Assembly: GCA_965223505.1 (NCBI GenBank)
Contig: CBDCWP010000042.1
Location: 76,520 to 140,519, forward strand
Reading direction: 5' to 3'
Origin: Planctomycetota bacterium
GTDB lineage: Bacteria > Planctomycetota > PLA2 > JAEUHO01
DNA: 64,000 nt
Shown here: in pieces, positions 8,488 to 64,000 of the stretch
Layout: each line of letters starts with the position of its first letter
How positions within the stretch are numbered: position 1 is the first letter of the stretch
The notes under the pieces: model-generated
What the model saw: the letters and a program-made list of their open reading frames with translations, nothing else
What the model was told of the DNA's origin: nothing
The model's database searches: none
Program-made: the position numbers and the translations under genes

Positions 8488-9573
8488 ATGCTGCGACCGC
8501 TCATCACCCTGGGTCTGGTTTTGTCGTGCGCCCCGGCGGCCTGGAGCAAGGCCTCCCATCCGGCCTTCGATCTCGGCGCGTGCACCCACCGCGCGACGCA
8601 CGTCTTCGCTGCGAACAGCAATGCGAGGGGCGACCGGTTACGGGTCGTCGAGAGCTGGCAGGGTGACCTGGCGCCGGGTGACGAGCTCGAGCTGACGGAG
8701 CTTCGCCCGCTGGAAGCGGCGCGCGGCAAGCGGGTCATCGCCTTCCTCGTGCGCGAGGGCGGCGTCTGGCGCCACGCGTCGGAGGGCTTCTACAAGGTGC
8801 CCGCGACGACGCCTGGACTCGTACGGACGAGCGTCGTCTGGATCGACGGCGGCGTGGTCAAGGGCCTGCAGTCGGGCGAGCGCGGCTCCGTCGTAGGCGT
8901 GGTTGCTCACTACGACGCGCGCACGAAGACGTTCACGCCGTACACGGAAGCGACGCTTCGCCGGGAATGGACGCGGCTACGGGGCTGGCGAACACGCTTC
9001 GAGCGGGCGAAGGCGCTCGCCGACCCGTCGAAGCGCGGGGAAGCGCTGTGCGAGCTCGTCACCACCTCGCCGTTGTCGCGCTACTGGTACGCCTCGTACC
9101 CCCTGATTCGCGATTGCGGCGAGGCCGCGTGGCCGCACGTGCAGACGGCGCTGGACACCCTCTTGAAAGACGGGCACCGCGGTTGGGGCTGGAAGTTCGT
9201 CGAGATCGTCGAGTCCGCCGCGCCGCCGGAGGCCAAGGACCGGCTTGCCGCGTTCCTTCACGACCGGCTGCGTGCGGAGCTTGCGTACTGGAAGAGGAGC
9301 GCGGCCAAGCTCGAGGCGCTACCCGACGGCGCGCTCTACGGCATCCAGCGGGCGTGGCGCGACGGCGAGACGCAGGGGGCGGTTGACGTCGAGATCGCCG
9401 TGCGTTACTTCGCGACGTTCCACCTCGTCGAAGCGCTGCGACGCACGGACGCATCGCGTGGGAAGGCGACGTTCGGCGCACTCGAAGCGTTCTGGATGCG
9501 GCACCAGGACCTCCACAAGGGCTACGTCGACGAGGTCCGTGTGCTCGACGCGATCCGCCGTGCGTCGGTGTAG
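8488..9573 (+). CDS. Hypothetical exported protein
   Basis: Signal-peptide-like N-terminus (MLRPLITLGLVLSCAPAAWS) and natural composition; no family recognised. Confidence 0.7.
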   Translation: MLRPLITLGLVLSCAPAAWSKASHPAFDLGACTHRATHVFAANSNARGDRLRVVESWQGDLAPGDELELTELRPLEAARGKRVIAFLVREGGVWRHASEGFYKVPATTPGLVRTSVVWIDGGVVKGLQSGERGSVVGVVAHYDARTKTFTPYTEATLRREWTRLRGWRTRFERAKALADPSKRGEALCELVTTSPLSRYWYASYPLIRDCGEAAWPHVQTALDTLLKDGHRGWGWKFVEIVESAAPPEAKDRLAAFLHDRLRAELAYWKRSAAKLEALPDGALYGIQRAWRDGETQGAVDVEIAVRYFATFHLVEALRRTDASRGKATFGALEAFWMRHQDLHKGYVDEVRVLDAIRRASV

Positions 9574-9740
9574 GGGCGACCCTCGTGGTCGCCCAACCGT
9601 TCGTCGATCAGGTCCCGACACATCAACGGTCCGGGAGCGGGAGCGGGATGGATGTAGGGGCGACCCTCGTGGTCGCCCAATCATTCGTCGATCAGGTCCC
9701 GACACACGCACGGTTGGGCAGCCACAAGGGCTGCCCCTAC
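9570..9740. repeat. GTAG-family REP cluster (BIME-like) of three 25-bp REPs
   Basis: GTAGGGGCGACCCTCGTGGTCGCCC at 9570-9594 and 9654-9678, each followed by the same TTCGTCGATCAGGTCCCGACACA spacer. Inverted GTAGGGGCAGCCCTTGTGGCTGCCC at 9716-9740. Lies between convergent genes. Confidence 0.88.
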
Positions 9741-12550
9741 TACCTCCGCACGTACTTGCCGCCGTTGGCTGCGGCCAGGCGCTCGAGCAGATCCGAGTCT
9801 CGGCCGATCGAGACGCAGTGGATCGCGATCCGCCGTGACTGGTTCAAGCGGCGCACGCCACGCAGGATGTCCGGGGTCGTCACGAACTTCCCCGATCCCG
9901 GCGCGCCGTCGGACAGGACGAAGATCGTGTCGACGTCGTCCATGAGCAGCGCGAGCTCGACACCGTCGTAGAGATTCGTTCCGCCCGTCGGCTTCATGTC
10001 CAGCAGGTGCTTCTTCAAGATCCCACGGTTGCGGGACGACAGCTTCTGCAGCTTGTCCTTCCACGGGTGGATCGTGGTGTGGAACATCACCACGTTCACG
10101 CGCGCGCGGTCGTTGAGCTTGCCGATGGCGCCGAGCACCTCCCGGACGGCGACGTCGAGCTGATTGAGCCGCTCCTTCTCCTCGTCGTCGAGAGACGCCG
10201 CCGGCGAGCTCATCGAGCCGGACTGGTCGATGACGAACACGACGCGCTCCGTCTTCACCGGAATGCCGTAGAAGCCCGCACCCGTGCCGCCGACGTCCGA
10301 GTCCACCCGCTCGGGAATCTCGACCGGCACCTCGAACGTCGCCTGGTTCTTGTTCCACCAGTCGCGCCAGATGCGCGGATTGTCGTACAGCGGCTGCCCG
10401 GTCAACCGGAACAGCGCGTCCGCGATCGCGTCGCGAATCCGCGGCACGTCTTCGTTCTCGAGCCGGTCGATGAGCGGCTCGATGCCCGACTTGCAACGCA
10501 ACGCCTCGATCGCTTGGATCGCCGCTAGGCGGACCTGCCACTCGTCGTGACGGAGACTCGGCGCGACCTTCTTGCACAGCTGTGTCTGGCCCGACGCCCG
10601 GGCGGCATCGAGCGCCAGGATGCGATCGATACGCCGCTTGGACGTGAGCAGCTTGAGCAAGAACGCGCGCGCCTTGTCGTCGCCCATGCCCACCCGTGCG
10701 AGCGCGCGAATGGCGGCCTGACGCGGGGCGTCCTTGACGGGATCCTTGCTCGCCTTCTTCTTCGCGAATTTCAGCAGCAGAGGGACCGCCGCCGGGTCGT
10801 CGTGATCGCCCAGGGCTTCGAGCTGCGCCGCGCGCGCGTCCGGGTCCTTTTCCTTCTTCGCGCGCTTGAGCAACGCCTTGGTCACGTCCCGGTGCGGGAT
10901 CCCGGCCAGCACCTCCGCCGCGACGGCCCGCAACGCCGGCGACTTGGCGTCGACGGCCTTCACGATCGCGGCGACGCTCTTCGGCGCGCGAATGAACCGA
11001 AGCGCGTCCAGCGCGTTCGACCGGATCTCCTCGTCGAGCCCCTCGCGCTCCAACATGGCCAGCAGCGCTTCCACGCTCTTGGGATCGCCCTGCATGCCGA
11101 GAATCGTGACCACCTCCCGGGCCTCGAATCGCGTGAGCTCGGGATCCTCGGCGAGCCCGATCGCGACGTCGCGCGTCAAGGGGTGCCGCAGGTCGTGCAG
11201 GTCCTCCAGGACCTCCAGGCGCAACCGGCGGTCGTTTGAACGCGCGGCTTCCAGCATGAGCTCCATCGGCGGGCCGCCCTTCAGGTACCGCAGGCCGTAT
11301 CCGTAGAGCGCTTCGCGAACGTCCTTGCGCGACTTGTACGCGTCGAGAATCGCCTTGCGGGACCCGTCGGTGCGCATCCCGGCGAGGTACATCGCGGCTG
11401 AGCGAACGGCCGTCGCCTCGCCCTTCGCCACGATCTTCTCGTAGACCCTCGCGCGATCCGGGTGCCCCATGCCTTGGAGCGCGTAGACGGCGGCGTTCTG
11501 GATGTTCGCGTCGCTCTGGCCGGCATAGCCCATGACGGCGCTGCCGCCGATCTTCAGGTAGCAGGCGTAACCCATGGCCTGGATCGCCTGCTGCCGGATG
11601 TACTTCTCGGCGTCCGCGTCCGCGATCCTCTTCAGCACACGAAACGCGTCGTCCGTGCCCACGCGGCCGATCTCCCGCACGGTGTCGTAGCGGTCCACGA
11701 ACGACTTCGACGTCTTCTTCTCCTTCTCGAAGAGCTGCTTGAGCTCGGCCAGCGACTTGTCGGGTGGCGACGTCTTGCGACCGCTCGACATGACGCCCCT
11801 GTTTTGCCACTTGCGCGGCTTCGCGTCGGGCACGGCCGCGGCTCGAACGAAGGTGAGCGTGCGACCCGAAGCGTCGGTTCGTTTCGCGATCCAGCCCTCG
11901 TCGCCGACGCGGAACGCGACATCGGGCTTGACCTGCTCGTCGTCGGCGCCGTACGTGTCGAACGTGCCGTTGCCGTTCAGGTCGACGAAGACCGTGTCGC
12001 GCGCGTGGTCGAAGCGAAGATCCGAGGTGTTGTCGCACAGCGCGACGAGGCGCAGACGGCCGCCCAGCACGGCACGACCGCGACGGTGCACGTTCGGACG
12101 CACCATCAGGGAGTCGATCGCGAGTTTCGGCCTGTACGTGAAGTGCAGCGAGACGGGCGTCGGCCGCTCGTCCCCCTCATACGAGATCAAGACGGTCTGA
12201 TCGCGTTCGTACTCGTTGCCCTCCTTGCGCATCCAGACGCGCTTCTCGTCGCGGAGCTGTCCGTCCATGTTGTGATCGACCCACAGCCGCGGCCCCTCCG
12301 GGCGCGCGTCCATGGCGATCAACAGCCCCCTGGTGCCGGCCATGACGATGCGGCTGTAGCGCGGCGTGCGAACGGCCGGAAGCGCGGCCAGGCCCTTGGG
12401 CGGGTCCGGTTTCAGCGGGACGCGGTTGGCGCCCAGCGAATCGATGCGGCCCGGCTCGAACGCCAGGTGCGCGACGATCGTCTCCACATCCTCGCCGTCG
12501 GCGCGCGCGGGCAGCGCGACGACGAGGCACGACAGGGCGAGGAGCAGCAT
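9740..12550 (-). CDS. Exported HEAT-repeat protein with a C-terminal VWA domain
   Basis: Signal peptide MLLLALSCLVVALPARA, a long HEAT-repeat array, and VWA/MIDAS motifs FVIDQSGSM, GGTNLYDG, LSDGAP. The upstream part of the track ORF is antisense to the antiporter. Confidence 0.85.
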   Translation of the reverse strand: MLLLALSCLVVALPARADGEDVETIVAHLAFEPGRIDSLGANRVPLKPDPPKGLAALPAVRTPRYSRIVMAGTRGLLIAMDARPEGPRLWVDHNMDGQLRDEKRVWMRKEGNEYERDQTVLISYEGDERPTPVSLHFTYRPKLAIDSLMVRPNVHRRGRAVLGGRLRLVALCDNTSDLRFDHARDTVFVDLNGNGTFDTYGADDEQVKPDVAFRVGDEGWIAKRTDASGRTLTFVRAAAVPDAKPRKWQNRGVMSSGRKTSPPDKSLAELKQLFEKEKKTSKSFVDRYDTVREIGRVGTDDAFRVLKRIADADAEKYIRQQAIQAMGYACYLKIGGSAVMGYAGQSDANIQNAAVYALQGMGHPDRARVYEKIVAKGEATAVRSAAMYLAGMRTDGSRKAILDAYKSRKDVREALYGYGLRYLKGGPPMELMLEAARSNDRRLRLEVLEDLHDLRHPLTRDVAIGLAEDPELTRFEAREVVTILGMQGDPKSVEALLAMLEREGLDEEIRSNALDALRFIRAPKSVAAIVKAVDAKSPALRAVAAEVLAGIPHRDVTKALLKRAKKEKDPDARAAQLEALGDHDDPAAVPLLLKFAKKKASKDPVKDAPRQAAIRALARVGMGDDKARAFLLKLLTSKRRIDRILALDAARASGQTQLCKKVAPSLRHDEWQVRLAAIQAIEALRCKSGIEPLIDRLENEDVPRIRDAIADALFRLTGQPLYDNPRIWRDWWNKNQATFEVPVEIPERVDSDVGGTGAGFYGIPVKTERVVFVIDQSGSMSSPAASLDDEEKERLNQLDVAVREVLGAIGKLNDRARVNVVMFHTTIHPWKDKLQKLSSRNRGILKKHLLDMKPTGGTNLYDGVELALLMDDVDTIFVLSDGAPGSGKFVTTPDILRGVRRLNQSRRIAIHCVSIGRDSDLLERLAAANGGKYVRR

Positions 12551-12649
12551 CTGCTTCAAGGGCCCGGATTCTAGCCGTCGGAGCGCCGCGGCGCTGCACA
12601 CGGGTCCCGTCGGACGGGTGGCGGAGAATCCGGAGCACCCGGAGGCTCC

Positions 12650-14347
12650 GTGCTCGCAACGCTGCTCTTTGAACCCGAGCCTCTCCTGGTCCTGGCGTTG
12701 GTCCTCGTCGTCGGCGTCGCCTCGGGCGCGATCGCGCGGCGTCTGGGCCTGCCCTCCGTCACGGGACAGATCCTCGCCGGCATCTGCCTCGGCCCGATCT
12801 TCCACGTGTTCGAGCACGCGACGATCACGGGCTTCGCCCCCGTCATCGACTTCGCCCTGGGCCTCATGGCGGTCGCGGTCGGCAGCCACCTCCAGATCGC
12901 CCGGCTCAAGTCGGCGGCGCGCCGGCTCTCGCTGCTCATCCTGGCGGAGGCCCTTCTGACGCCGGCATTGGTGTTCGGGGGCGTCATGATCGTCGGCGGT
13001 GTGGAGTGGGATGCCGGATTGATCCTGGCGACGATCGCCGTCTCGACGGCGCCGGCCACGATCCTGGCGATCGTGAAAGAGACGCGCTCGAAGGGGGTCT
13101 TCGTCAAGACGCTCGTCGCGGCGGTCGCGCTGAACAACATCGTGTGCATCGCGCTTTTCGAGTTTGCGCACACCGCGGCGCTGCAAGCCGTCGGCGGAAC
13201 GAACGGCGTCTCGACCTGGGCGCTCTTGCTGGCGCCGCTCGAACAGCTTCTCTTCGCGGTCGTCCTGGGCAGCGGCGTCGCGATCCTGCTCGTCGTCGCG
13301 ACGCGCCACGTGGTGCGCACCGATCAGATGACGACGCTCTCGTTCATCACCATCCTGCTGACGGCGGGACTCGCCGCGCAGCTGGGCGTCTCGTCGCTCT
13401 TGGCCTGTCTCGTCTTGGGCGTCGTCCTCGCCAACCTCACGCCGGACAAGGAAGAGATCGGTCACAGCGTCTTCGAGAGCTTCGAGACGGCGATCTTCGC
13501 GATCTTCTTCACGTTGGCCGGCATGGAGCTGAACTTCGACTACGCGCTGGAGGCCGGCGTGCTGGCGCTGGTCGTCGTCAGCATGCGCGGCGCCGGCAAG
13601 CTGCTGGCCGGACGATTCGCCATGGGCTTGGCCGACACGACCGACCGGGTGCGCAAGAACCTCGGGCTTGCGCTCCTTCCGCAGGCGGGCCTGGCGGTGG
13701 GCCTGATGCTGCTCGTCACGGAAGACACGCGCTTCCCGGAGGAGATGCGCGCGGTCATCCTCGCGACGGTGCTCACGGTCGTGACGATCAACGAGATCAT
13801 CGGACCGGTCTGCACGCGCATCGCGCTCGCGCGCTCGGGCGACATCGGCCGCGACCGATCGCGCCTCATCGACTTCATCCACGAAGAGCACATCGTGACG
13901 GACCTGGAGGCCGAAAGCGTCGAGGAGGCGCTCGAGAAGCTCACGGATGTGCTCGTGCGGACGAACGATCTGCAGGCGAACCGCGACGCCATTCTCGCCT
14001 CGGCGCTCGAGCGGGAGTCACGCGGCTCGACGTGCCTCGGCGACGGCCTTGCGGTTCCGCATGCCGATCTCGAGGAAGGCGACGAGATCGTGGGCGCGGT
14101 CGGCATCAGCAGCGAAGGACTTCACTTCGAAACGCCCGACGGCGCGCCTGTGCACTGCATGGTGCTGATCGCGACGCCGCCGTCCCAGCGCGACCACCGG
14201 CTGGAGGTCATCACGGCGTTTTCGCGCGCGATCTTCAGCGACCGCGGCATCGAGCAACAGCTCTACCACGCCCGGACGCCGGCGCACGCGTACGAGCTCC
14301 TTCATCACGAGGAGTCGGAGGACTTCAACCACTTCCTCGAAGACTGA
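12650..14347 (+). CDS. Cation:proton antiporter (Na_H_Exchanger fold) fused to a C-terminal PTS EIIA (Fru/Ntr-type) domain
   Basis: About 12 TM helices with STAPA, FFTLAG and PQAGLAVG motifs; C-terminal ERESRGSTCLGDGLAVPHA and FETPDGAPV EIIA motifs. Confidence 0.88.
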   Translation: MLATLLFEPEPLLVLALVLVVGVASGAIARRLGLPSVTGQILAGICLGPIFHVFEHATITGFAPVIDFALGLMAVAVGSHLQIARLKSAARRLSLLILAEALLTPALVFGGVMIVGGVEWDAGLILATIAVSTAPATILAIVKETRSKGVFVKTLVAAVALNNIVCIALFEFAHTAALQAVGGTNGVSTWALLLAPLEQLLFAVVLGSGVAILLVVATRHVVRTDQMTTLSFITILLTAGLAAQLGVSSLLACLVLGVVLANLTPDKEEIGHSVFESFETAIFAIFFTLAGMELNFDYALEAGVLALVVVSMRGAGKLLAGRFAMGLADTTDRVRKNLGLALLPQAGLAVGLMLLVTEDTRFPEEMRAVILATVLTVVTINEIIGPVCTRIALARSGDIGRDRSRLIDFIHEEHIVTDLEAESVEEALEKLTDVLVRTNDLQANRDAILASALERESRGSTCLGDGLAVPHADLEEGDEIVGAVGISSEGLHFETPDGAPVHCMVLIATPPSQRDHRLEVITAFSRAIFSDRGIEQQLYHARTPAHAYELLHHEESEDFNHFLED

Positions 14348-14356
14348 TCTCGCGCG

Positions 14357-17300
14357 CTAGCGGAAGTACCAGGGCTGACAGAGGCCGGTTTGCTCACATG
14401 CGTAGCCGAGGCGCTGGATCAACGTCAGGGCCTTGTCGCGGATCGGATGCGAGACGATGCCGCTTTCGCACGTGCCGTAGGTCGACCAGGGACCACCGCA
14501 ATCGGTACCTGTCAGGTTGGGATACGGCATCGGAACCGGCGACGGCGCCGCCGGGGTCACGCACGCACCGAGGCTCGTCGTCAGTCCCTGACCGATCGCC
14601 TGGTTGAGCAACGACTGTGACAACGCGTTGTCGTGCATCACATATGCGTCGATCGGCGTGGATGCGCCGGCGTACGGGCTGTCGTAGGCGTGGGTGGCGT
14701 ACGAAGGGGTACTCCCTGGGCGGTGCGTCGGATCCACCACCAACGGTGCCATCTCGAACGGACTCATGTGTGCGTTCGTCACGAACGCGTCGGACGACGT
14801 CGACGTGCCGCGCGTGGCGTTCATCAGGTTGCTGCCCGCGTCGTGCCGGGTCCCGCGGCCGACGTACAGGGCGGCCCCGACACTGCCTCCGATCTTGAGC
14901 TTGCCGTCCTCGTACCCGATGACCGAGTGGTTCAAAGGCCTTTCGCCCGCGAATGACTCGACCGTCGTCGACGCTTCGTCGCGGAGCTGGAGCTCGAATT
15001 CGAGGCGATTGTCGTGGCACGCGTAGAAGATGCCTTCCTCTTCCATGAGCCGGTTCACGAAGTTCAGGTCGCTCTCGTTGTACCGCGCGTTGTAGACCCG
15101 GCCCGTGATCACCGGCCGATCGGGATCGCCTTCCACGAACATCGTCGCCAGCACCTCGCTCTCGCGCAGGATCAACCCCAGCCCCGCGCCCTGCGCGCCG
15201 TTCCCGGAGCCGGAGACGGCGTACGAGCTGACGCGCGCCTTCTCGAGCTTGATGGTGTAGCGCCCCATCGGATCGGCGGCGTTGATGGGGTCGTTGCCCG
15301 CGAAGGCGAGCGGGTTGCCGTCGGATGCGGCGTCGCCGTACTTCCCCAGGGGATCGCGACAGGCGAACTCCGCGTCTCGGGGGTCGCGGTACCGGGCGCG
15401 GTGGTGGTAGAGCGCGGTGAACGTGTCCCAGCGCCGGCCGTGCTGCAGGAACGGGTTTTCCAGCGGGCTGCCGGCGGTTGCGGCGAGCGTCGTCGCGTCG
15501 TGCACGGAGGGGAAGTCGAGCACGCCGTAGGCGTTGAACTCCACCGGCGCGCCTTGCTCGTTCACGAGGTGCGTGACGTTGCCCGACGGTCCGCGCAGAT
15601 GGAAGAAGTAGGCGTCCGGCGTGATGTCCCTGCCGGAGTCGGCGAACATCGCGTGGATCGAGTCGGTGCCCTCGCCGTAGACGAATTCCCGCGTCAAGGT
15701 CTCCGGCAACGCGGCGGTCGAGACGCGCTCCTCGACGACGTGTTCGCCGTCGTACACGTAGTGCTCCGTGCGCAGGCCCTTGCCGCCGCCGCTGAACTCC
15801 TTGGACACGCGCCGTCCGAGCGCGTCGTAGGTGTTGACGCCGACAACCGCGTTGGGGTTGACCGCGAGCCGAACGGCGCGTAGACGGCCGAACCCGTCCC
15901 ACTGCAGCAAACGCACGGGGTCCTCCGAGCGCATGCCGCAGCCCGTGCCGCCGCCGTCAGCCTGATACGGCGCATCGGCGATCGCGTGCAGCGGCGTGCG
16001 ATTGATCGCCCGGTTGGTGGTCCCGCCCGCGCCCAAGTCCTCGAAGACATTCTTGATCGCCTGCGCGCCGTCATACGTGACGTCGACGTTTCGTTGCGCG
16101 GCGCCGCCGAGGCTCGTGGTCTCCATCGCGTCTTCGGTCGTGAGCCGGCCACGCGAGTCGTAGCTCCAGGCGAACGCCCGCGACATCTGCGGACCTCCGG
16201 GTGTGACATAGGCGTACGCCGCCGTGGTCATCTGGTCCGTGCGATTGCGCGCCGAGATCTGTACGCCGCCGACGCCGGCGCCCGGCTGATCGATGTGCGC
16301 CACGCTCGCGATCAACAGCTTGCCGTCGAACGTCGCGGTCGTTCGGCTGCGTTGCGTCCCGCCGATGAGCCTCTCGACGCGCAGCACCTGCGCCGTCCCC
16401 AGTCGTCGCAGCAGGATCTCGAGACGGTTCGGGGTCGCGGCGGGTTCGACGATGCCGGTCAGCTGATTGTGATCGTCGTACTCGTACCGCAGCACGCGTC
16501 CCTCGGGGAAGTGCAGCGTGCTGCGCCGATCCGCGTCGTAGCTCGTTCCGGTCGCGACGCCGTTTTGCACCTCCTCGACGCGGCGGGAGAGCGAGTCGTA
16601 CAGGAAGCGCACCGTCGCGTCGTCGCCCGCGTCGCCGGGCTCGTTGTTGTCCGTGCAGACGATCTTGCGGGAGAGCCCGTCGTAGTCGTAGGTGAGCTCC
16701 GTCGAGCCGACGTAGAGCGGCAGCGTCCCGCCGGCGATGGTCCGCGTCGGGTCGGGCGCGACGGTGTGACTGCGCAGCCGGTCGAGAGCGTCGTACGTGA
16801 ACGTGTGGACGGTGCCGTTTTCGTCCGTCGACGACGTGACGCGGTGGTCGCGGTCGAACGTCCAGGTGCACACGCCGCCGTCGGGGTTCGTGCGCGAAAC
16901 GCGCCGGTCGATCGCGTCGTAGGCGTACTGCGTCGTGTTGCCGGCGTCGTCTGTGCGCTCGGCGACGCGCCCGTTGGGATCCCACTCGCTCAGGAGCCGA
17001 ATCAGACCGTCGTTGTTGTGGCTGTTCGTAGTGTCGAGCGCGTTGGCGCCCTCGCCGCCGACGCGTAGCTCGCGCGTGACGAGCCACGGGCGATCCACCC
17101 CGTCGTAGTCCACGAACAGACCGTTGCCGTGGCCGTTGATCGGTCCCGGAAACAGCGCGAGCGGGTCGCTGATCAGCACCCCGCGCGCGTCGTACTGCGC
17201 GGTCAGGTTCCCGCGGCTGTCGTACTCGAAGCGCGTGGTCTGTCCCTTCGGATCCGTGACGCGGGTGACGCGGTTCAGGACGTCGTAGACGTAGTGCGTC

Positions 17301-20290
17301 GTGAGCGTCACCGGCGCGACGATCGACATCTCGCTCACGTGCACGGCTTCGGTGCGAACGACGTTGTCGTTCGGATCGTAGAGAAACCGTGTCTCGGTCG
17401 GCGTGGGCCCGGCGGGATCCACGATCGGCAAGCGCCGTGTGATCAGTCGGTCGGCGCCGTCGTAGACCTGCGCGTAGGTCGCGTCCCGGTCCTCGTGACG
17501 AAACGTCATGCGCCCGTTCGCGTCGTACTCCAGGATCGTGTTGATCTTGCCGTCGCCGGGGACCAGCGGCCCTTCCGTGACCGTTGCACCGCTCGAGGGC
17601 GTCACGCCGGTCGCCAGGAACAGATCGCGATCGATGCGGAAGAGTCGGCTGTGCTCGTCGTACAGGAAGTCGCTCCCCGCAAGCAGAGTGTGGGCGCCGC
17701 CGCCCACGGCCGGACCGCGCGCCTCGTAGCGCACGCGGTTCCCCACCGGGTCGTACGCGCAAGTCTCGACGTTGCCTTCGCGGTCGGTGACGGCGATGCG
17801 CCGGTCGAAGCCGTCGTAGTCGTAGCGCGTGACGTCGCCGCCCTCCGCGTCGATGACCTGGACCCGGTTGCGGTTGTCGTCGTACAGGAAGGTTGCCGTC
17901 GAAGCATCGTTGCCTTGCCCGCCGAGCGTTCGGGCGTCGCACAGGTCGCGCGCGTCGTAGCGGAACAGACGGCGGTTCTCGCTCTGTTGGCCGGAGGTGG
18001 ACGCGGGGGTGGCCACCTCGACGACGTTCTGGCTCGCGTCGTAGACGTACCGCGTCTCGAGTGCGGTCGGCTGCGCCGACGCGGGCACGGCCGGATCGCG
18101 CCGCGCATCGTGGGTCGCGGCGATGCGATCGTCGAGGATGTCGTACGCAAAGACGTGCGTGAAGACCGCGAGCCCGGGCACGACCCCACTCTGGTGCGTG
18201 GTTCGGTCGGTCTTCTGATTCTCGACCTCGACACGGACCACGTTGTCGTTGGCGTCGTAGATGACGTCGCGCCGGTAGCCGTGCGACTGACCTGCGTCCA
18301 CGACCGGCGCCTCGACGCGCACGATCTGATCGAGGGCGTTGTAGATCGTGATGAACTCGCTGCCGCGAGCGTCGTCGAATCGAATCTCGTTCCCTCGGCG
18401 GTCGCGCGTGAACGTGTGCGTTAGCGCCAGCGCCGGGCCCGGGTCCTGTCGGCGCGGTCCGATCGACGCGTCTTCGACGACCTGCCGCAGGTATCCGCCG
18501 GTCGTGCCGTTGCGGCCCGGCGTGACGTCCTGGCCGTCGCCGTCGGGGTCGTTCTCGGGGAAGTAGGCAAACGTGTCCTGGTTGCCGCGCGGGTCCTCGA
18601 GCAACGTCAGCTGACCCAGGTCGTTCCAGACACAAAGCACCACGATGCCCTGCAGGTTGTCACCCTCGGTCGCCGCCTGCTCGGACGTGATGTCCAGGTG
18701 CACCGTCGGCGTGTCGACGCGTACGGGATTGCCCATCGACTGGTCGATACGACCGTCGAAGTTCAGGTCGCCCTGGTTGAGCAGGCCGGGCGGGATCGTG
18801 ATGCCGAACTGGGCGGCCTGCGGCGGCGCGACCGTGTTCTCCATCCAGTCGTAGTGGTAGGTCGTGGTGTACCGCGCGGCCGACTGCGGTCCCCCGTTCT
18901 GGGGTAGATACGTGGCGTCGTTACCGCGCGGGTCCGTGACGGTGCGCACGAGGTTGTAGAGCGGCTCGTACGTGTAGGTCGTTCGCAGCTGCAGCTGATC
19001 GCCGCCGCGCCCGTCCGGGACGCAGGTGCGCGAGAGGAGGTTGCCGTGCCGGCAGCGGTCGGGGCTCGTGCTGTCGTACACGAAGTCGACGCGGTTCCCG
19101 AGGGGCGTGGTGATGCGCGTCGGCAACCCGTCGCCGTTGTAGGTCACGTCGGTCGTGAAGCCGCCGCCGGACGGGGACTCGACGGCGCGCAGACAGTGGC
19201 CGTCGCCGTCGTGGAAGTACTGGGTGGTGTTGCCGTTGCGGTCCACGACGGTCGTCATGGACGTCGATCCGGGCGGGCCGGCGACGGCGCCGAAGTCGTA
19301 GGTGTACGACAACGCGCCGCCCGCGGGCTGACCGGACGCGTTCGTCCCGCCGATCGTCTGCGAGACGACGCGGTCGAACCCGAACCCCGCGGCGCCGTAC
19401 GTCACCTGGCGCGCCGGCGTGAGACTGGCATTCGCGACCTCGTTGGGTCGGATGACGCGCAGGAGGTTGCCGTTGAGACGGGGATCGCCGAATCCCGACG
19501 AGTAGGCGTACCGCTCGATCTTTCCGTTGGGGAAGTCGTTGCCCGTCGGTGTGCCGTTCACGGGCGGCGTTGTCACGGCCACGAGATTGCCCGCCGCGTC
19601 GTAGTCGTAGGCGACGACGCGCCCGGTGAAGTCGGTCATCGAACGCAGCCGTCCCTGCCCGTCGTAGACGAAGTCGACGCGGCGGCCGAGCTCGTCGGTA
19701 ATCGAGGTCGGAAGGGCGCCGGTGTAGCTCCATTGCGTTCGGTTGCCGGCACGGTCGTCGCGATGCTGGACGCGTCCCTGGAGATCGAACCGGTGCACCG
19801 TGCCGTGGGGCGAGCGCAACGACCATCCCAGCACGTCCTTCACGAGGGTCTCGAAGCAGCCGGTGACCGGCCCATACGATCCGCCGCCGATGTCCGGGAA
19901 GACGTCGAACCGCCCGGTCCCCCAGTGCACCTCGACGTCGCCGTTCAGCCGTTCGACGAGGCGCACGAAGAGGCTCGCGTCCCATCCGCGCCCCAGCGGA
20001 CCGTTCGCGTCCGACTGGCTGCGGTACACGCGCACGAACCGCCAATCCGCACGCCGACAACGGATGCGCATGTCGACGCGTCGAAGTACGAGCTCGCCGC
20101 TGTGCAGCAACACGCGGCCGACTGCGTCCGACGCATCGATGCCGAAGCTCGGACTGCGCGGAGGCTGGATCACGAACGGCCCGGTCGGCAGGATCAACGT
20201 GGTGCCGCCGCCACCGCCGCAACCCAACGACAACGAGAGCAGGGTCAGCGCGCCCATCCATCGGAGGCACTTCGGGTCGGCGTTGCGCAT
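14357..20290 (-). CDS. RHS/YD-repeat protein with lipoprotein signal, DUF6531-like domain, RHS core and an atypical mosaic C-terminus
   Basis: LLSLSLGC lipobox; VLLHSGELV...GPLGRGW (DUF6531-like); many YxYDxxGR/N repeats; core ending DPLG...NDPINAADPMG (15263-15274). Start ATG 20290 has an AAAGG SD-like site; the track starts the ORF at 20329. Confidence 0.92.
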   Translation of the reverse strand: MRNADPKCLRWMGALTLLSLSLGCGGGGGTTLILPTGPFVIQPPRSPSFGIDASDAVGRVLLHSGELVLRRVDMRIRCRRADWRFVRVYRSQSDANGPLGRGWDASLFVRLVERLNGDVEVHWGTGRFDVFPDIGGGSYGPVTGCFETLVKDVLGWSLRSPHGTVHRFDLQGRVQHRDDRAGNRTQWSYTGALPTSITDELGRRVDFVYDGQGRLRSMTDFTGRVVAYDYDAAGNLVAVTTPPVNGTPTGNDFPNGKIERYAYSSGFGDPRLNGNLLRVIRPNEVANASLTPARQVTYGAAGFGFDRVVSQTIGGTNASGQPAGGALSYTYDFGAVAGPPGSTSMTTVVDRNGNTTQYFHDGDGHCLRAVESPSGGGFTTDVTYNGDGLPTRITTPLGNRVDFVYDSTSPDRCRHGNLLSRTCVPDGRGGDQLQLRTTYTYEPLYNLVRTVTDPRGNDATYLPQNGGPQSAARYTTTYHYDWMENTVAPPQAAQFGITIPPGLLNQGDLNFDGRIDQSMGNPVRVDTPTVHLDITSEQAATEGDNLQGIVVLCVWNDLGQLTLLEDPRGNQDTFAYFPENDPDGDGQDVTPGRNGTTGGYLRQVVEDASIGPRRQDPGPALALTHTFTRDRRGNEIRFDDARGSEFITIYNALDQIVRVEAPVVDAGQSHGYRRDVIYDANDNVVRVEVENQKTDRTTHQSGVVPGLAVFTHVFAYDILDDRIAATHDARRDPAVPASAQPTALETRYVYDASQNVVEVATPASTSGQQSENRRLFRYDARDLCDARTLGGQGNDASTATFLYDDNRNRVQVIDAEGGDVTRYDYDGFDRRIAVTDREGNVETCAYDPVGNRVRYEARGPAVGGGAHTLLAGSDFLYDEHSRLFRIDRDLFLATGVTPSSGATVTEGPLVPGDGKINTILEYDANGRMTFRHEDRDATYAQVYDGADRLITRRLPIVDPAGPTPTETRFLYDPNDNVVRTEAVHVSEMSIVAPVTLTTHYVYDVLNRVTRVTDPKGQTTRFEYDSRGNLTAQYDARGVLISDPLALFPGPINGHGNGLFVDYDGVDRPWLVTRELRVGGEGANALDTTNSHNNDGLIRLLSEWDPNGRVAERTDDAGNTTQYAYDAIDRRVSRTNPDGGVCTWTFDRDHRVTSSTDENGTVHTFTYDALDRLRSHTVAPDPTRTIAGGTLPLYVGSTELTYDYDGLSRKIVCTDNNEPGDAGDDATVRFLYDSLSRRVEEVQNGVATGTSYDADRRSTLHFPEGRVLRYEYDDHNQLTGIVEPAATPNRLEILLRRLGTAQVLRVERLIGGTQRSRTTATFDGKLLIASVAHIDQPGAGVGGVQISARNRTDQMTTAAYAYVTPGGPQMSRAFAWSYDSRGRLTTEDAMETTSLGGAAQRNVDVTYDGAQAIKNVFEDLGAGGTTNRAINRTPLHAIADAPYQADGGGTGCGMRSEDPVRLLQWDGFGRLRAVRLAVNPNAVVGVNTYDALGRRVSKEFSGGGKGLRTEHYVYDGEHVVEERVSTAALPETLTREFVYGEGTDSIHAMFADSGRDITPDAYFFHLRGPSGNVTHLVNEQGAPVEFNAYGVLDFPSVHDATTLAATAGSPLENPFLQHGRRWDTFTALYHHRARYRDPRDAEFACRDPLGKYGDAASDGNPLAFAGNDPINAADPMGRYTIKLEKARVSSYAVSGSGNGAQGAGLGLILRESEVLATMFVEGDPDRPVITGRVYNARYNESDLNFVNRLMEEEGIFYACHDNRLEFELQLRDEASTTVESFAGERPLNHSVIGYEDGKLKIGGSVGAALYVGRGTRHDAGSNLMNATRGTSTSSDAFVTNAHMSPFEMAPLVVDPTHRPGSTPSYATHAYDSPYAGASTPIDAYVMHDNALSQSLLNQAIGQGLTTSLGACVTPAAPSPVPMPYPNLTGTDCGGPWSTYGTCESGIVSHPIRDKALTLIQRLGYACEQTGLCQPWYFR

Positions 20291-20362
20291 CGGGCCGCCT
20301 TTCCGCATTCGTCCGAATGCCGGCAACAAGTATAGGAATTCGCCGTTTGCGGCGGCAATGCG

Positions 20363-56064: not shown

Positions 56065-56073
56065 CGTGTCGCA

Positions 56074-56169
56074 GTAGGGGCAGCCCTTGTGGCTGCCCAA
56101 TTGGGCGACCACGAAGGTCGCCCCTACAGGTCGCTCGATCAATTGGGCGACCACGAAGGTCGCCCCTAC
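56074..56169. repeat. Second GTAG-family REP cluster (BIME-like) of three 25-bp REPs
   Basis: GTAGGGGCAGCCCTTGTGGCTGCCC at 56074-56098; inverted GTAGGGGCGACCTTCGTGGTCGCCC at 56103-56127 and 56145-56169. Lies between convergent genes. Confidence 0.88.
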
Positions 56170-56172
56170 GTC

Positions 56173-61457: not shown

Positions 61458-62776
61458 TTACGGTTTCTCCGACGCCGTCACGACGGTGCGCCGCGCCCGC
61501 TCACGGCGCCACCAATCGCGCCAGATGCGCGCGTCGGGTGCGAGCCCCTCGTCGGTCAACGCCTGCAGGCCCTGCATGACCGGCTCGGCGCCCCGCCCCG
61601 CCGAAGCTCTGGGATCGCTCCAGCGCCTCCATGAGCGGTTTGGCGAGCGGCGCGAGCGGACGCCCCACGGACCGATCGCGAACCATGGCGATGGCCGCGA
61701 GGGCCGCGCGCCGCAGGGACGCATGTCCTTCGGCCAGCGCATCCGCGAGCACGCCCATCGCCTCGGGGTCGTCGCCGCGGCCGACGAACTCGTTCGCCAC
61801 GATCAGGTGGATCGGCGCCACCGTCTGGACGGCGCGGCGCATCGAGCGCAGCGGCTCGGCAGCCAGCGGCTCGTACCCCTTCGGAACGACGACGACCTTG
61901 CCGGGCCGCACGGGCAAGCGAACCGAGCGCTCCTCGTCGCCGACCCGCATGCGCGTCGGGCGCAGGGTGCCCGAGACCTCGAGCACGCGCAGCCCGGAGA
62001 TCGCGTCGCCCGCCTCCTCGACGGGGATACGCGCCGCCGCCTCGTGCACGTCCCGGCCTTGATCCGGATCGGGCCGGAGCCGGGCTTCTGTAGAAACAGC
62101 GTCTGCGTCCAGTTGCGCTTGAGCGTGGTTGCGAACACGTCCCGGTCGCGCCGGGTGATCTCGAGGGTGATCGCGGACGGCGAGATCGCCGCGACGCCCG
62201 TCGACGCTTGCTGCGGCGCGAGCAAGACGACGTCGACCCCCGAGACGTTGCGGATGCGGATCCGGAAGTCGACCGGGTTGCCGAACGTCACGTAGTCGCG
62301 GACGGGCCGCGCCTCCACGCGCAACAGCTCCACCTGCGCCTTCTTCATGCGCAGCGTCATCTTCAGCTGGCGCAGCCGGTTCGCCACGCCTGCGGCGGTT
62401 CCTGTTGCAGGGCGTTGTTGATGATCTGAAGCGCCGCATCGTCGTACCCCGCCTGCACGTAACGCGACGCGAGCTCGAGCTTTTCCCCCCAACCGGCCTC
62501 GCGATCGTCCACGGGCCGACGGTCGCGCAGCGGGTCGTTGGCGCCGCCCCGAACGTTGGGGTTGGGGATCACGATCGGTTCGAAGCCGGGCGCGATCGGC
62601 CCCTCGGGCTGCGCCTCCGGCTCGGCGGTCTCGTCGTCGGGCTGGGTGCTGCTGCAGCCGCAAAGCAACGCGCAGGATGTGAGACCAACGAGAACGAGCC
62701 GACGCAAGGCGCCGGCTCGTTTCGGATGAGCAATGTGACGTGCGTACACGTTCGTAGAATGACGCCGAGGCGTCAT
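61458..62776 (-). CDS. Hypothetical lipoprotein with a C-terminal HEAT repeat, split by three frameshifts (about 62384, 62052, 61617)
   Basis: LLCGC lipobox; a coherent protein can be read across four track ORFs and ends WRDWWRRE, like other HEAT proteins in the window. Confidence 0.6.
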
Positions 62777-62783
62777 ATGGCCG

Positions 62784-64000
62784 TCACTCGGACTTGGGCT
62801 CGTCACCCTCGGCTTCGGCTGGCGTCTCCTCGGCGGCGGCCTCGGCGGGCGCCTCTTCGGCAGGCGCTTCCTCTGCGGCGGCCGCGGCGGGCGCCTCTTC
62901 GGCAGGCGCTTCCTCGGCCGGGGTCTCGTCGGCGGAGGCCTCGACCGGCGCCTCTTCCCCAGGCGCTTCCTCGGCCGGGGTGTCGTCGGCGACGGCTTCC
63001 GCCGGCGCTTCCTCGGCGGGGTGTCTCGTCCGCGGCGGCCTCGGCAGGCGCCTCCTCCGTCGCTTCGGACGACGCCTCCTCGGCGTCCTCGATCGTGGGA
63101 TCGATGGACTCCGTGTCGACCTCCGCGCCCTCCGCCGCCGCCGCGGCGGCGATCGCCTTCTGCGCGGCCGCCTCGACGACCTTGGCCTTGCTGTCCGACA
63201 GCAGCGCCTTGGCGATCTCCTCGTCGCGCACCAGCGTCAGCGCGATCTTGCGATCGTCGGTGTCGAGACGCAGCACCTTGACGGCGACGGCGTCGCCGGG
63301 CTGCAGGTTGTCGGCGGGCGTGAGCTCGGAGATGTGCAGCAGGCCCTCGAGGTCCTGATCGAGCTGCACGAAGATGCCGAAGTTCGTCACCTTCGTGACG
63401 GCACCGGCATGCTCGGTCTCGGGCTTGAACTTCTCGAGAATCTCCTTCTGCCACGGGTCGAGCTCGAGCTGCTTGAGGCCGAGCGCGATCCGCTTCTTGT
63501 CCGGGTGCACCGACAGCACGACGGCGCGCACCGTGGAGCCCTTGTCCATGACCTCGGCCGGGTTCGCGATCTTCTTCGTCCAGGACATGTCCGAGACGTG
63601 CAGGAGCCCGTCGATGCCGTCCTCGATCTCGATGAACGCGCCGTAGCTCGTGAGGTTGCGCACCATGCCCTCGACCAGCGTGCCGGGGGGGAAGCGCTTG
63701 TCGACGTCGTCCCACGGGTTGCCGTCGGCCTGCTTCATGCCGAGCGAGATCTCTTGCTTCTCGCGGTTGATGTCGAGCCACGACGACCTCGACCTCGTCC
63801 TGCACCTTGACGATCTCGTTCGGGTGGTTGACCCGCTTCGACCAGGACATCTCGGAGATGTGCACGAGACCCTCGATGCCGTCTTCGAGCTTCACGAACG
63901 CGCGTAGGGCATCACGTTCACGACCGTGCCCTTGACGCGGCTTCCGACGGGGTACTTGAGCTCGACGGTCTCCCAGGGGCTGGGAACTTCTGCTTGAGGC
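62784..64000 (-). CDS. rpsA: 30S ribosomal protein S1, C-terminal part, with four single-base frameshifts (about 63983, 63903, 63778, 63020)
   Basis: S1 domains [51 protein letters not shown]...EGLLHISE; the corrected tail ends [11 protein letters not shown] at 62784. Confidence 0.9.
62805..63090 (-). repeat. Coding tandem repeats (EEAPA/DETPA units) in the acidic tail of rpsA
   Basis: Repeated minus-strand GAGGAAGCGCC/GAAGAGGCGCC units with 15- and 33-bp periodicity. Confidence 0.75.

What the first reader, a model, noticed from the sequence alone, without database searches (positions are those of the whole stretch)
14357..15262. RHS cargo is an in-frame mosaic of short peptides resembling type VI secretion structural proteins (Hcp, VgrG, PAAR-like)
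Seen: after the RHS autocleavage motif (NDPINAADPMG) come 300 stop-free codons with no nuclease, deaminase or ADP-ribosyltransferase motif that I can recognise. Four short segments resemble conserved T6SS sequences. YTIKLEKARVSSYAVSGSG (15203-15259) is like the Hcp/TssD Y..I.L....VSSY..SG strand. FVEGDPDRPVITGRVYNA (15086-15139) is the VgrG gp5 OB-fold signature. YNESDLNFVNRLMEEEGIFY (15023-15082) is the VgrG gp27-region QY.ESD..F..RLMEEEGI.Y motif. CVTPAAPSPVPMPYPN (14516-14563) is the DUF4150 PAAR-like C.TP..P.P.PYPN motif, and a weaker GIVSHPIRDKA follows at 14429-14461. Known: these motifs belong to three different genes, and each piece is far too short to fold as its parent domain. Inference: four sense-strand, in-frame 48-60-nt pieces from one machine suggest fragment capture plus selection. 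This may be an undescribed system that accretes foreign gene snippets into an RHS-encapsulated payload, for example decoy or dominant-negative peptides against rival T6SS or contractile tails, or a diversification/memory cassette. The function is speculation.
Basis: partly seen in the sequence, partly recalled or inferred. Interest (0 to 1): 0.92.

Follow-up and report, generated by a model that had tools for sequence, protein, structure and literature searches.

The report
Rhs tail built from T6SS scraps
The tail of a giant Rhs shell protein in an uncultured high-GC bacterium really does contain short in-frame pieces of type VI secretion genes, but it looks like a one-off recombination scar, not a system that collects gene snippets.

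Summary
The minus-strand gene 14357-20329 encodes a 1990-aa Rhs/YD-repeat protein. Its Rhs core domain ends at DPMG (residue 1689). The 301-aa tail that follows carries short T6SS-like pieces, numbered here from the start of the tail:
- Residues 35-59 match the end of the VgrG OB fold.
- Residues 60-102, directly abutting, match the VgrG gp27 helix-hairpin. The order is reversed relative to VgrG.
- Residues 233-251 match the start of the PAAR-like DUF4150 domain, with a weak collinear second piece at 266-279.
- Residues 2-23 match an Hcp strand. Only a targeted profile supports this; Pfam and the PDB search do not.

No protein anywhere shares the tail. I searched 1.84 billion representative proteins, metagenome and genome contigs, and 60 relatives. 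The genome has no Hcp, VgrG, PAAR-like or TssC gene and no donor DNA. None of 30 other Rhs loci, and none of the 25 tails I scanned, shows such pieces. There are no repeats and no downstream immunity gene.

Junctions sit at shared short peptides (RVY, a Gly-rich run). In this GC3-rich genome, 61-73% of short microhomologies between genes are in phase, so in-frame joins need no selection.

Best reading: a unique scar of illegitimate recombination at the Rhs cassette site. A snippet-capture or decoy system is not supported.

The parts
14357..20329 (-). rhs gene: 1990-aa YD/RHS-repeat shell protein, from the TTG at 20329 (first ATG at 20308) to the stop at 14357-14359
   Evidence: ORF list and translation. 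Pfam RHS_repeat E 2.8e-62 in 9 stretches. TIGR01643 YD_repeat_2x E 3.2e-61.
20219..20308 (-). Likely Sec signal peptide with a lipobox-like ...LSLSLGC ending (residues 8-37)
   Evidence: Read from the translation; inference only, no predictor was run. The paralog on contig C5 has a similar ...LLCTGCGGGGG N-terminus.
19910..20107 (-). DUF6531 domain (residues 75-140)
   Evidence: Pfam PF20148, E 5e-09, 36.8 bits, cut-off 24.1.
15263..15463 (-). Rhs-associated core domain ending in the autoproteolysis-type motif ...NDPINAADPMG (residues 1623-1689)
   Evidence: TIGR03696, 35.1 bits, cut-off 32.5, profile positions 13-75 of 76. Relatives end their cores at the same DPxG position.
14360..15262 (-). 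Cargo or tail: 301 codons (residues 1690-1990, q1-q301), an orphan sequence
   Evidence: No hit at E<=1e-10 among 1.84 billion representative proteins. Only a self match in the own genome. In-frame GC3 is 0.72-1.00 in every 25-codon window. Codon usage lies within the range of host genes.
15194..15259 (-). Hcp-like piece, q2-23 (YTIKLEKARVSSYAVSGSGNGA), matching Hcp profile positions 94-115
   Evidence: Profile of 32 phylum Hcps: 10.3 bits, and 0 of 1000 shuffles reach it. Not found by Pfam or the PDB search.
15086..15160 (-). End of the VgrG gp5-type OB fold, q35-59 (SEVLATMFVEGDPDRPVITGRVYNA), matching VgrG 434-457. It probably extends back to q23 (nt 15196).
   Evidence: Pfam DUF6484 E 0.0087. 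tblastn to one VgrG covers q23-58 at 45% identity.
14957..15085 (-). VgrG gp27-region helix-hairpin, q60-102 (RYNESDLNFVNRLMEEEGIFY...), matching VgrG 150-192. It abuts the previous piece, in reversed order relative to VgrG.
   Evidence: Pfam Phage_GPD 34.8 bits. TIGR03361. PDB 8qja, q57-98 to 145-186. Own profile, 42.9 bits.
14567..14956 (-). Middle of the tail with no recognisable relative, q103-232; rich in Ser, Thr, Ala, Gly and Pro
   Evidence: No Pfam or PDB hit at E<=10. Against 160 VgrG loci with flanks the best tblastn score is 23.5 bits, while 200 shuffles have a mean best of 24.5 bits.
14510..14566 (-). PAAR-like (DUF4150) N-terminal motif, q233-251 (ACVTPAAPSPVPMPYPNLT), matching profile positions 12-30
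   Evidence: Pfam PF13665, E 0.013-0.026. Profile of 11 domains: 0 of 1000 shuffles reach the score.
14426..14467 (-). Weak second DUF4150 piece, q266-279 (ESGIVSHPIRDKAL), matching profile positions 67-80 and collinear with the first piece
   Evidence: domain score -3.0 bits. The segment q255-301 scores 2.3 bits, and 1 of 1000 shuffles reaches that.
14360..14509 (-). Cys-rich end of the tail, q252-301 (4 Cys; a fifth, q234, lies in the PAAR-like piece), no relative found
   Evidence: Translation. No family other than the DUF4150 match.
12650..14347 (+). Convergent neighbour: a Na+/H+ exchanger fused to a PTS EIIA domain. Its stop lies 9 nt from the rhs stop, which leaves no room for an immunity gene.
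   Evidence: Pfam PF00999 E 1.6e-25 and PF00359 E 1.3e-22, the latter reaching residue 553 of 565. Sequence.

Best explanation
The gene is an ordinary Sec/lipoprotein-type Rhs (YD-repeat shell) protein. It is not a T6SS-delivered one. Its 3' end, exactly at the position where rhs genes swap toxin cassettes, carries a unique chimeric tail.

The tail was produced by non-programmed, microhomology-mediated illegitimate recombination: deletions, plus at least one duplication-type or template-switch join. These events collapsed parts of a T6SS effector neighbourhood (hcp, vgrG, a DUF4150 PAAR-like gene) onto the end of the Rhs core.

What is shown:
- The fragments are real.
- They abut one another.
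- Their order is hcp, then vgrG, then PAAR-like, with one reversal inside vgrG.
- The tail is unique.
- The genome has no T6SS.
- No immunity gene follows.

What is inferred:
- The joins arose at short shared sequences (a Gly-rich run, and RVY).
- In-frame continuity is a by-product of the strong period-3 composition of this genome.
- The tail is evolutionary debris packed in, or hanging from, the shell. It is not an active classical toxin or a purpose-built decoy.
For: Fragments and order.
- The pieces are Hcp 94-115, then VgrG ~421/434-457, then VgrG 150-192, then DUF4150 12-30, then DUF4150 67-80.
- The two DUF4150 pieces are collinear, with about 36 profile positions replaced by 14 residues. 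That is what an internal deletion leaves.
- hcp lies upstream of vgrG on the same strand in both relatives looked at, G038 and G057.

Junctions.
- The OB motif ends in GRVYNA. In the VgrG of a same-order relative the gp27 motif starts RVYCVQY, and the two sites share CG(G/C)GTCTAC at DNA level.
- The Hcp|VgrG join lies in a Gly-rich run that both families have.

Frame.
- Same-strand exact matches of 8, 9, 10 and 11 nt between 7 genes of this window are in the same codon phase in 61%, 65%, 68% and 73% of cases. Chance would give 33%.

Uniqueness.
- 0 of 1461 library hits reach E 1e-10, and the 150 listed are VgrG-type matches within q12-233.
- The 80+80 best loci from metagenome and genome contigs match only within q1-232.
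- 0 of 60 relatives share the tail.
- Among 31 Rhs loci only this one has such pieces. 0 of 25 other tails hit a T6SS family.

No machinery.
- No repeat family involves the tail.
- The neighbours are ComM-like and Na/H-exchanger genes.

No T6SS and no donor in the genome (92.5% complete).

Context.
- Relatives carry unrelated 87-422-aa tails at the same DPxG boundary.
- A paralog in the same genome has its Rhs core cut short and fused in frame to a secretin C-terminal half. So in-frame 3' fusions of rhs genes occur in this genome.

Literature.
- C-terminal toxin cassettes of polymorphic toxins are exchanged by recombination (PMC3482391; search listing with the start of the abstract).
- Recombination hot spots within the conserved vgrG domain and at the 3' end of hcp operons generate mosaics (PMC8546570; passages read).
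Against: - Every junction is in frame, and GC3 stays high in this frame throughout. With 4-6 joins at about 65% each, the chance is only roughly 0.1-0.2, so some selection for an open frame cannot be excluded.
- The VgrG motifs are close to the family consensus: 16 of 18 and 17 of 20 residues against my consensus, which was built from hits picked by similarity to the query. This argues against long neutral decay.
- Three of the four main pieces coincide with the most conserved block of their family. That fits microhomology or detection bias, but would also fit selection on those motifs.
- No intermediate, donor or less-collapsed relative was found, so the path is inferred and not observed.
- Codon usage of the pieces is fully host-like: q1-102 scores 0.73 against a host mean of 0.63. 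The event is therefore not a recent import from a compositionally different donor.
- About 60% of the tail (q103-232 and q252-301) is unexplained.
Confidence: 0.6

Rival explanations
1. The tail contains a real but undescribed toxin or effector domain in q103-301 (the unexplained middle plus the Cys-rich end). The T6SS-derived pieces at its start are only a relic linker. The immunity gene lies elsewhere, or the target is absent from the producer.
For: - The tail sits exactly where relatives carry their toxins. Relatives have, for example, an M35 aspzincin and a PT-HINT plus AHH nuclease.
- 22 of 25 other tails also match no Pfam family, so an orphan sequence is normal for Rhs toxins.
- The DPMG cleavage-type motif is intact.
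- The frame is open and codon usage is host-like.
Against: - There is no immunity ORF; a convergent gene ends 9 nt away.
- No homolog of q103-301 was seen. The 150 library hits listed, all at 44 bits or more, fall within q12-233 and are VgrG-type. The contig scans matched only within q1-232.
- There is no confident fold, though the single-sequence AlphaFold2 model (pLDDT 31) says little either way.
- The PAAR-like pieces interrupt this region.
Confidence: 0.22
2. One reading: the mosaic is selected. It would be a payload of decoy or dominant-negative peptides against rivals' T6SS or contractile tails, or the output of a system that accretes foreign gene snippets into Rhs cargo.
For: - All pieces come from one machine, on the sense strand and in frame.
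- The producer has no T6SS of its own, although Hcp occurs in 98 of 401 genomes sampled from its phylum.
- The motifs stay close to consensus, and three are the most conserved block of their family.
- A paralog carries another secretion-machine part, a secretin.
Against: - There is a single instance with no relative anywhere.
- It does not recur in 30 other Rhs loci or in the 25 other tails scanned.
- No repeats, spacers or linked enzymes were found.
- The in-frame joins are explained by phase-biased microhomology.
- The secretin on the paralog is a whole collinear domain, 45% identical to the genome's own secretins. It is not a snippet.
- Isolated 14-43-residue strands of beta-rich domains are unlikely to fold or to compete. 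This last point is inference.
Confidence: 0.07
3. The mosaic is an assembly chimera of a low-coverage metagenome.
For: - Word depth is only about 5.
- In run X2 the contigs break at 15112-15128, inside the OB-motif piece.
- Conserved T6SS motifs could in principle share k-mers between organisms.
Against: - One Logan contig of run X1 (10,850 nt) spans 13800-15800 with 0 differences.
- The X2 contigs cover 13800-15112 and 15128-15800 with 0 differences.
- X3, a different sample of the same study, holds 14086-14349, 14462-14597 and 14615-14778 with 0 differences. That range includes the PAAR-like piece.
- No joints or indels were reported.
- Frame, GC3 and codon usage are continuous with the host gene.
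- Caveat: X1 and X2 are one sample and may be the source of the assembly, so they are not independent data.
Confidence: 0.04
4. The resemblances are chance or convergence, and the tail is one ordinary collinear domain.
For: - The Hcp piece gets no Pfam or PDB support.
- The PAAR-like piece is Pro-rich and scores below the Pfam cut-off.
Against: - The VgrG matches are far beyond chance: E 8.4e-15 with NCBIfam and above the Pfam gathering score.
- Shuffle controls reach the observed score 0 times in 1000 for both the Hcp and the PAAR-like piece.
- No family covers the tail collinearly.
Confidence: 0.03

Closest known systems
Rhs / YD-repeat polymorphic toxins (shell, Rhs_assc_core with DPxGL autocleavage, variable C-terminal toxin cassette)
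   Same: It has YD/RHS repeats, DUF6531 and an Rhs_assc_core ending in DPMG. A variable tail follows at the same boundary as in relatives. Cassette exchange by recombination is the known way these tails diversify (PMC3482391; abstract start seen).
   Different: The tail is not a toxin fold. It is a patchwork that includes fragments of T6SS structural genes. No immunity gene follows. The N-terminus looks like a Sec/lipoprotein signal, not PAAR or another T6SS adaptor, and the genome has no T6SS.
Recombination mosaics and orphan modules in T6SS hcp/vgrG loci (Agrobacterium, Vibrio cholerae)
   Same: [quoted passage not shown] PMC5361080 I saw only as title and abstract start. Here the fragments come from those same genes and conserved blocks.
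   Different: The known mosaics keep whole, functional genes inside T6SS loci. Here 14-43-residue fragments are fused into one ORF behind an Rhs core in a genome without T6SS.
VgrG-Rhs fusion proteins and 'evolved' VgrG, Hcp and PAAR effectors (e.g. PDB 8qja)
   Same: VgrG and Rhs sequence occur in one polypeptide. 8qja matches q57-98 and q28-60, and P0161 and P0163 carry Phage_GPD plus RHS.
   Different: In those proteins a complete VgrG (gp27, OB fold, beta-helix) sits N-terminal to the Rhs shell and serves delivery. Here two short VgrG pieces sit C-terminal to the shell, in reversed order.
Acquired interbacterial defence clusters with orphan immunity genes and toxin-gene fragments (recalled from memory, not from any call)
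   Same: A T6SS-less or T6SS-targeted bacterium keeps pieces of rivals' T6SS loci.
   Different: Those clusters hold immunity genes, often with a recombinase. Here there is no immunity gene and no recombinase, and the fragments are of structural genes.

Membership tests
Rhs / YD-repeat polymorphic toxin | Many YD/RHS repeats forming the shell | tested here: met
   PF05593 E 2.8e-62 in 9 stretches. TIGR01643 E 3.2e-61.
Rhs / YD-repeat polymorphic toxin | Rhs-associated core domain ending in the DPxG(L) autoproteolysis motif | tested here: met
   TIGR03696 scores 35.1 bits against a cut-off of 32.5, over residues 1623-1689; the motif reads DPMG. Cleavage itself is not testable here.
Rhs / YD-repeat polymorphic toxin | C-terminal toxin domain of a recognisable or conserved family | tested here: not met
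   No toxin family in Pfam, NCBIfam or PHROGs. No homolog of the tail.
Rhs / YD-repeat polymorphic toxin | Cognate immunity gene immediately downstream | tested here: not met
   The convergent Na/H-exchanger-EIIA gene ends 9 nt from the rhs stop.
T6SS-delivered Rhs effector | N-terminal PAAR or other VgrG-binding module, and T6SS genes in the genome | tested here: not met
   No PAAR-type domain at the N-terminus. No Hcp, VgrG, DUF4150 or TssC in the 92.5%-complete genome.
VgrG (TIGR03361 / Phage_GPD plus gp5 OB fold) | Complete gp27-like hub followed by the OB fold, in that order | tested here: not met
   54.3 bits against a cut-off of 186.35. Only profile positions 434-457 and 150-192 are present, in reversed order.
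Hcp (PF05638) | Full Hcp beta-barrel domain of about 130 positions | tested here: not met
   No Pfam match. Only 22 residues align to positions 94-115 of my own profile.
PAAR-like DUF4150 (PF13665) | Full domain of 108 positions | tested here: not met
   15-16 bits against a cut-off of 31. Only positions 12-30 and, weakly, 67-80 are present.
Programmed sequence-capture or diversification system (CRISPR-like array, DGR, cassette array) | Repeats flanking the captured units, a template repeat, or a linked integrase or reverse transcriptase | tested here: not met
   No repeat family involves 14357-15262. The neighbours are ComM-like, Na/H-exchanger and HEAT/VWA genes.

The most novel reading that the evidence does not exclude
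The tail is a selected payload. In this reading, a T6SS-less bacterium packs an Rhs shell with a string of the most conserved interface peptides of rivals' Hcp, VgrG and PAAR-like proteins. These peptides would poison assembly of T6SS or other contractile injection machines in neighbouring cells. Alternatively, the tail is the first visible product of a process that writes fragments of foreign secretion-system genes into Rhs cargo.
Probability: 0.06. Interest if true: 0.85.

Novelty: new variant of a known kind. Interest (0 to 1): 0.35.

Why it matters
If the recombination-scar reading is right, the finding is a clean natural example of three things:
- The cassette site at the 3' end of rhs genes can fuse with whatever lies downstream.
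- Fragments of T6SS structural genes can survive inside an open reading frame long after the machine itself is gone.
- In very GC3-rich genomes, microhomology-mediated joins between genes are mostly in frame (61-73% in this window). This makes chimeric ORFs easier to create than the usual one-in-three expectation.

The result is also a caution for annotation. Short above-threshold Phage_GPD/VgrG hits in an Rhs tail do not indicate a T6SS effector.

It would matter much more if the small remaining chance of a selected anti-T6SS payload proved true.

Tried and rejected
- AlphaFold2 on the tail, without an alignment because no homologs exist: mean pLDDT 31.2, pTM 0.17. This says nothing about fold. 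I ran no fold search on it.
- The idea that the 'Hcp' piece is really an earlier strand of the VgrG OB fold. My VgrG profile does not align q1-34 to the OB region. It gives -1.9 bits at an unrelated place, and 7 of 500 shuffles reach that. The independent Hcp profile does align it. One VgrG aligns back only to q23. Rejected for q2-22.
- The idea that q103-232 continues the VgrG gp27 domain. Long 29%-identity alignments to two VgrGs are carried by the motif alone. q103-232 on its own scores 23.5 bits at best against 160 VgrG loci, while 200 shuffles have a mean best of 24.5 and a maximum of 32. The VgrG profile gives -5.1 bits, and 221 of 500 shuffles reach that.
- A single-sequence DUF4150 profile gave no usable scores. 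I replaced it with an 11-sequence profile.
- Other reading frames and the opposite strand over the tail: no family at E<=0.1.
- PHROGs: no phage hub or spike family.
- Donor search in the same genome by blastn, tblastn and three profiles: only the locus itself.
- Earlier findings of this scan: nothing on this place or topic.
- Literature search for Rhs tails made of VgrG fragments: one search with five terms. None of the 15 listed titles describes such a thing. This is not proof that it is not in print.
- Read cover: X3 does not cover 14805-15541. That gap is not evidence either way.
Full report
**What is there.** The feature lies on the minus strand. ORF 14357-20329 encodes a 1990-aa protein.
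- It has RHS/YD repeats (PF05593, E 2.8e-62; TIGR01643, E 3.2e-61) and a DUF6531 domain at residues 75-140.
- Its N-terminus reads like a Sec signal with a lipobox-like LSLSLGC. This is read from the sequence and is inference.
- The Rhs-associated core domain (TIGR03696, 35.1 bits, cut-off 32.5) covers residues 1623-1689 and ends at ...NDPINAADPMG.
I number the tail q1-q301.
- Nine nucleotides beyond the stop, a convergent gene ends at 14347. It encodes a Na+/H+ exchanger fused to a PTS EIIA domain, and its Pfam match reaches residue 553 of 565. There is no room for an immunity gene.
- Upstream of rhs lies a ComM/Mg-chelatase-like gene.

**Are the resemblances real?** The two VgrG pieces are beyond doubt.
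- Pfam Phage_GPD scores 34.8 bits (cut-off 30.1) on q55-82.
- NCBIfam TIGR03361 gives E 8.4e-15 in two stretches, though only 54 bits against a cut-off of 186.
- PDB VgrG1 structures align q33-61 to residues 426-454 and q57-87 to residues 143-173. The VgrG-Rhs protein 8qja aligns q57-98 to 145-186.
- A profile that I built from 80 VgrGs places q35-59 on positions 434-457 and q60-102 on positions 150-192, with no residue between them. That profile is biased, because its members were picked by similarity to the query. The library profiles are not.

The PAAR-like piece is moderately supported. Pfam gives E 0.013-0.026 at 15-16 bits, against a cut-off of 31. A profile of 11 DUF4150 domains from the phylum, chosen by Pfam, scores 16.9-19.8 bits, and 0 of 1000 shuffles reach that. 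One of 1000 shuffles reaches that score.

The Hcp piece is the weakest. Pfam finds nothing at E<=10 and the PDB search finds no Hcp. However, a profile of 32 Hcps from the phylum aligns q2-23 to positions 94-115 at 10.3 bits, and 0 of 1000 shuffles reach that (maximum 4.6).

I tested whether the Hcp stretch is instead an earlier strand of the VgrG OB fold. The VgrG profile does not support this. One VgrG aligns back only as far as q23.

The first 102 residues of the tail are thus three abutting pieces: Hcp 94-115, VgrG ~421-457 and VgrG 150-192. The rest of the tail matches nothing:
- q103-232 has no Pfam, PDB or PHROGs match.
- q252-301 matches only the weak second DUF4150 piece.
- q103-232 is no more like 160 VgrG loci and their flanks than its shuffles are.

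**Is the DNA real?** A Logan contig of run X1 spans 13800-15800 with no difference. X2, from the same sample, covers the stretch in two contigs that break at 15112-15128. X3, from another sample of the same study, holds three identical stretches between 14086 and 14778. No joints or indels were reported. Depth is about 5, and X1/X2 may be the source of the assembly. This is support from another assembler, not independent data.

In-frame GC3 is 0.87 over the whole tail and 0.72-1.00 in every 25-codon window, as in the rest of the gene. Synonymous codon usage scores 0.52 per codon. That lies inside the range of 32 windows of host genes (0.47-0.81), and the T6SS-derived part scores 0.73.

**Is it a family or a system?** No.
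- Among 1.84 billion representative proteins, 1461 hit at E<=1e-3 but none at 1e-10. All 150 listed are VgrG-type matches within q12-233.
- Scans of metagenome contigs and of one genome per species returned only VgrG genes. All 160 loci match within q1-232.
- None of 60 related genomes has the tail. The closest Rhs proteins share only the shell, at 38% identity at best.
- At the same DPxG boundary, relatives carry unrelated tails of 87-422 residues.
- None of 30 other Rhs loci (28 from relatives, 2 from this genome) contains a VgrG, Hcp or DUF4150 piece by my profiles. None of the 25 other tails scanned hits a T6SS family in Pfam; 3 of the 25 hit any family at all.
- No repeat family touches the tail.
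- The genome (5.15 Mb, 92.5% complete) has no Hcp, VgrG, DUF4150 or TssC, and no DNA or protein donor for the pieces.
- Hcp is present in 98 of 401 genomes sampled from the phylum. DUF4150 is present in 9 of 401.

**How it most likely arose.** The order of the pieces (hcp, vgrG, PAAR-like) follows the usual order of those genes. hcp lies upstream of vgrG in both relatives I looked at. The exception is that the end of the VgrG OB fold precedes the gp27 motif.

That reversed join is what a duplication-type or template-switch event between two short repeats gives. The OB motif ends GRVYNA. In the VgrG of a same-order relative the gp27 motif begins RVYCVQY, and the two sites share CG(G/C)GTCTAC. 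The Hcp|VgrG join lies in a Gly-rich run that both families have. The two collinear DUF4150 pieces look like the two sides of an internal deletion.

This is much less surprising in this genome than it seems. Between seven genes of the window, same-strand exact matches of 8-11 nt are in the same codon phase 61-73% of the time, because the period-3 composition is so strong. Three of the four main pieces are the most conserved block of their family. That is where microhomology between diverged genes, and our power to recognise a fragment, are both greatest.

A paralog on contig C5 shows that in-frame 3' fusions of rhs genes happen in this genome. Its core is cut short before the DPxG motif and continues into a complete secretin domain.

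Published work describes cassette exchange at the C-termini of polymorphic toxins (PMC3482391; abstract start only). It also describes recombination hot spots inside the conserved vgrG domain and at the 3' end of hcp operons (PMC8546570; passages read).

**What remains open.**
- The path is inferred. No intermediate or donor was found.
- The motifs are close to consensus and the frame is intact. Some selection, or a fairly recent origin in a donor with similar codon usage, cannot be excluded.
- About 60% of the tail is unexplained and could hold an undescribed toxin.
- The decoy idea could not be tested.

My odds are: recombination scar 0.6; orphan toxin with a relic linker 0.22; selected decoy or capture system 0.07; assembly chimera 0.04; chance 0.03.

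**Verdict.** The fragment origin is supported. The proposed snippet-accreting system is not. This is a new variant of a known kind: an Rhs protein whose cassette site carries a unique chimeric tail. It is of moderate interest.

Noticed in passing
G000 contig C5:77-5941, minus strand (partly in L047:77-3352): A paralog of this Rhs protein with the same lipoprotein-like N-terminus. It lacks the DPxG motif and is fused in frame to a complete Secretin domain (PF00263, 83.8 bits, profile positions 1-168 of 169). The secretin part is 45% identical to the genome's own secretins on contig C44. An Rhs shell joined to an outer-membrane secretin is unusual, and none of 28 Rhs loci of relatives has it. 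The gene ends 74 nt from a contig edge.
   Followed up: partly
window 9569-9741 and 56073-56172: A REP-like palindromic repeat (GTAGGGGCGACCC..GGTCGCCC..) occurs in two or more copies at each of two intergenic sites. The arms are 88-97% complementary.
   Followed up: no
L048 (G000:C26:111728-115372): An orphan 365-aa Rhs C-terminal fragment with its own DPLGL motif and a 171-aa tail. It lies directly downstream of a 392-aa ORF that reads like a transposase or integrase, which I did not test.
   Followed up: no
G009, G020, G014 (relatives; loci L060, L064, L065, L076, L078, L079): Some family members carry 9-21 matches to the end of the Rhs core, many of them in short ORFs clustered on one contig. 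These are arrays of orphan rhs 3' cassettes. The window's genome has only three such matches.
   Followed up: no
window 62758-63039: A run of overlapping 42-nt-period direct repeats (7 copies in register), GC-rich and coding-like, sits near the window's end.
   Followed up: no
window 14345-14359: The stop codons of the convergent rhs and Na/H-exchanger-EIIA genes are only 9 nt apart. There is no space for a terminator hairpin between them.
   Followed up: partly
window 9740-13891 (-) versus 12650-14347 (+): The 1383-aa HEAT/VWA ORF overlaps the exchanger gene by 1.2 kb on the opposite strand. Its Pfam matches begin only at residue 975, so its real start is probably far downstream of the listed GTG.
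   Followed up: no
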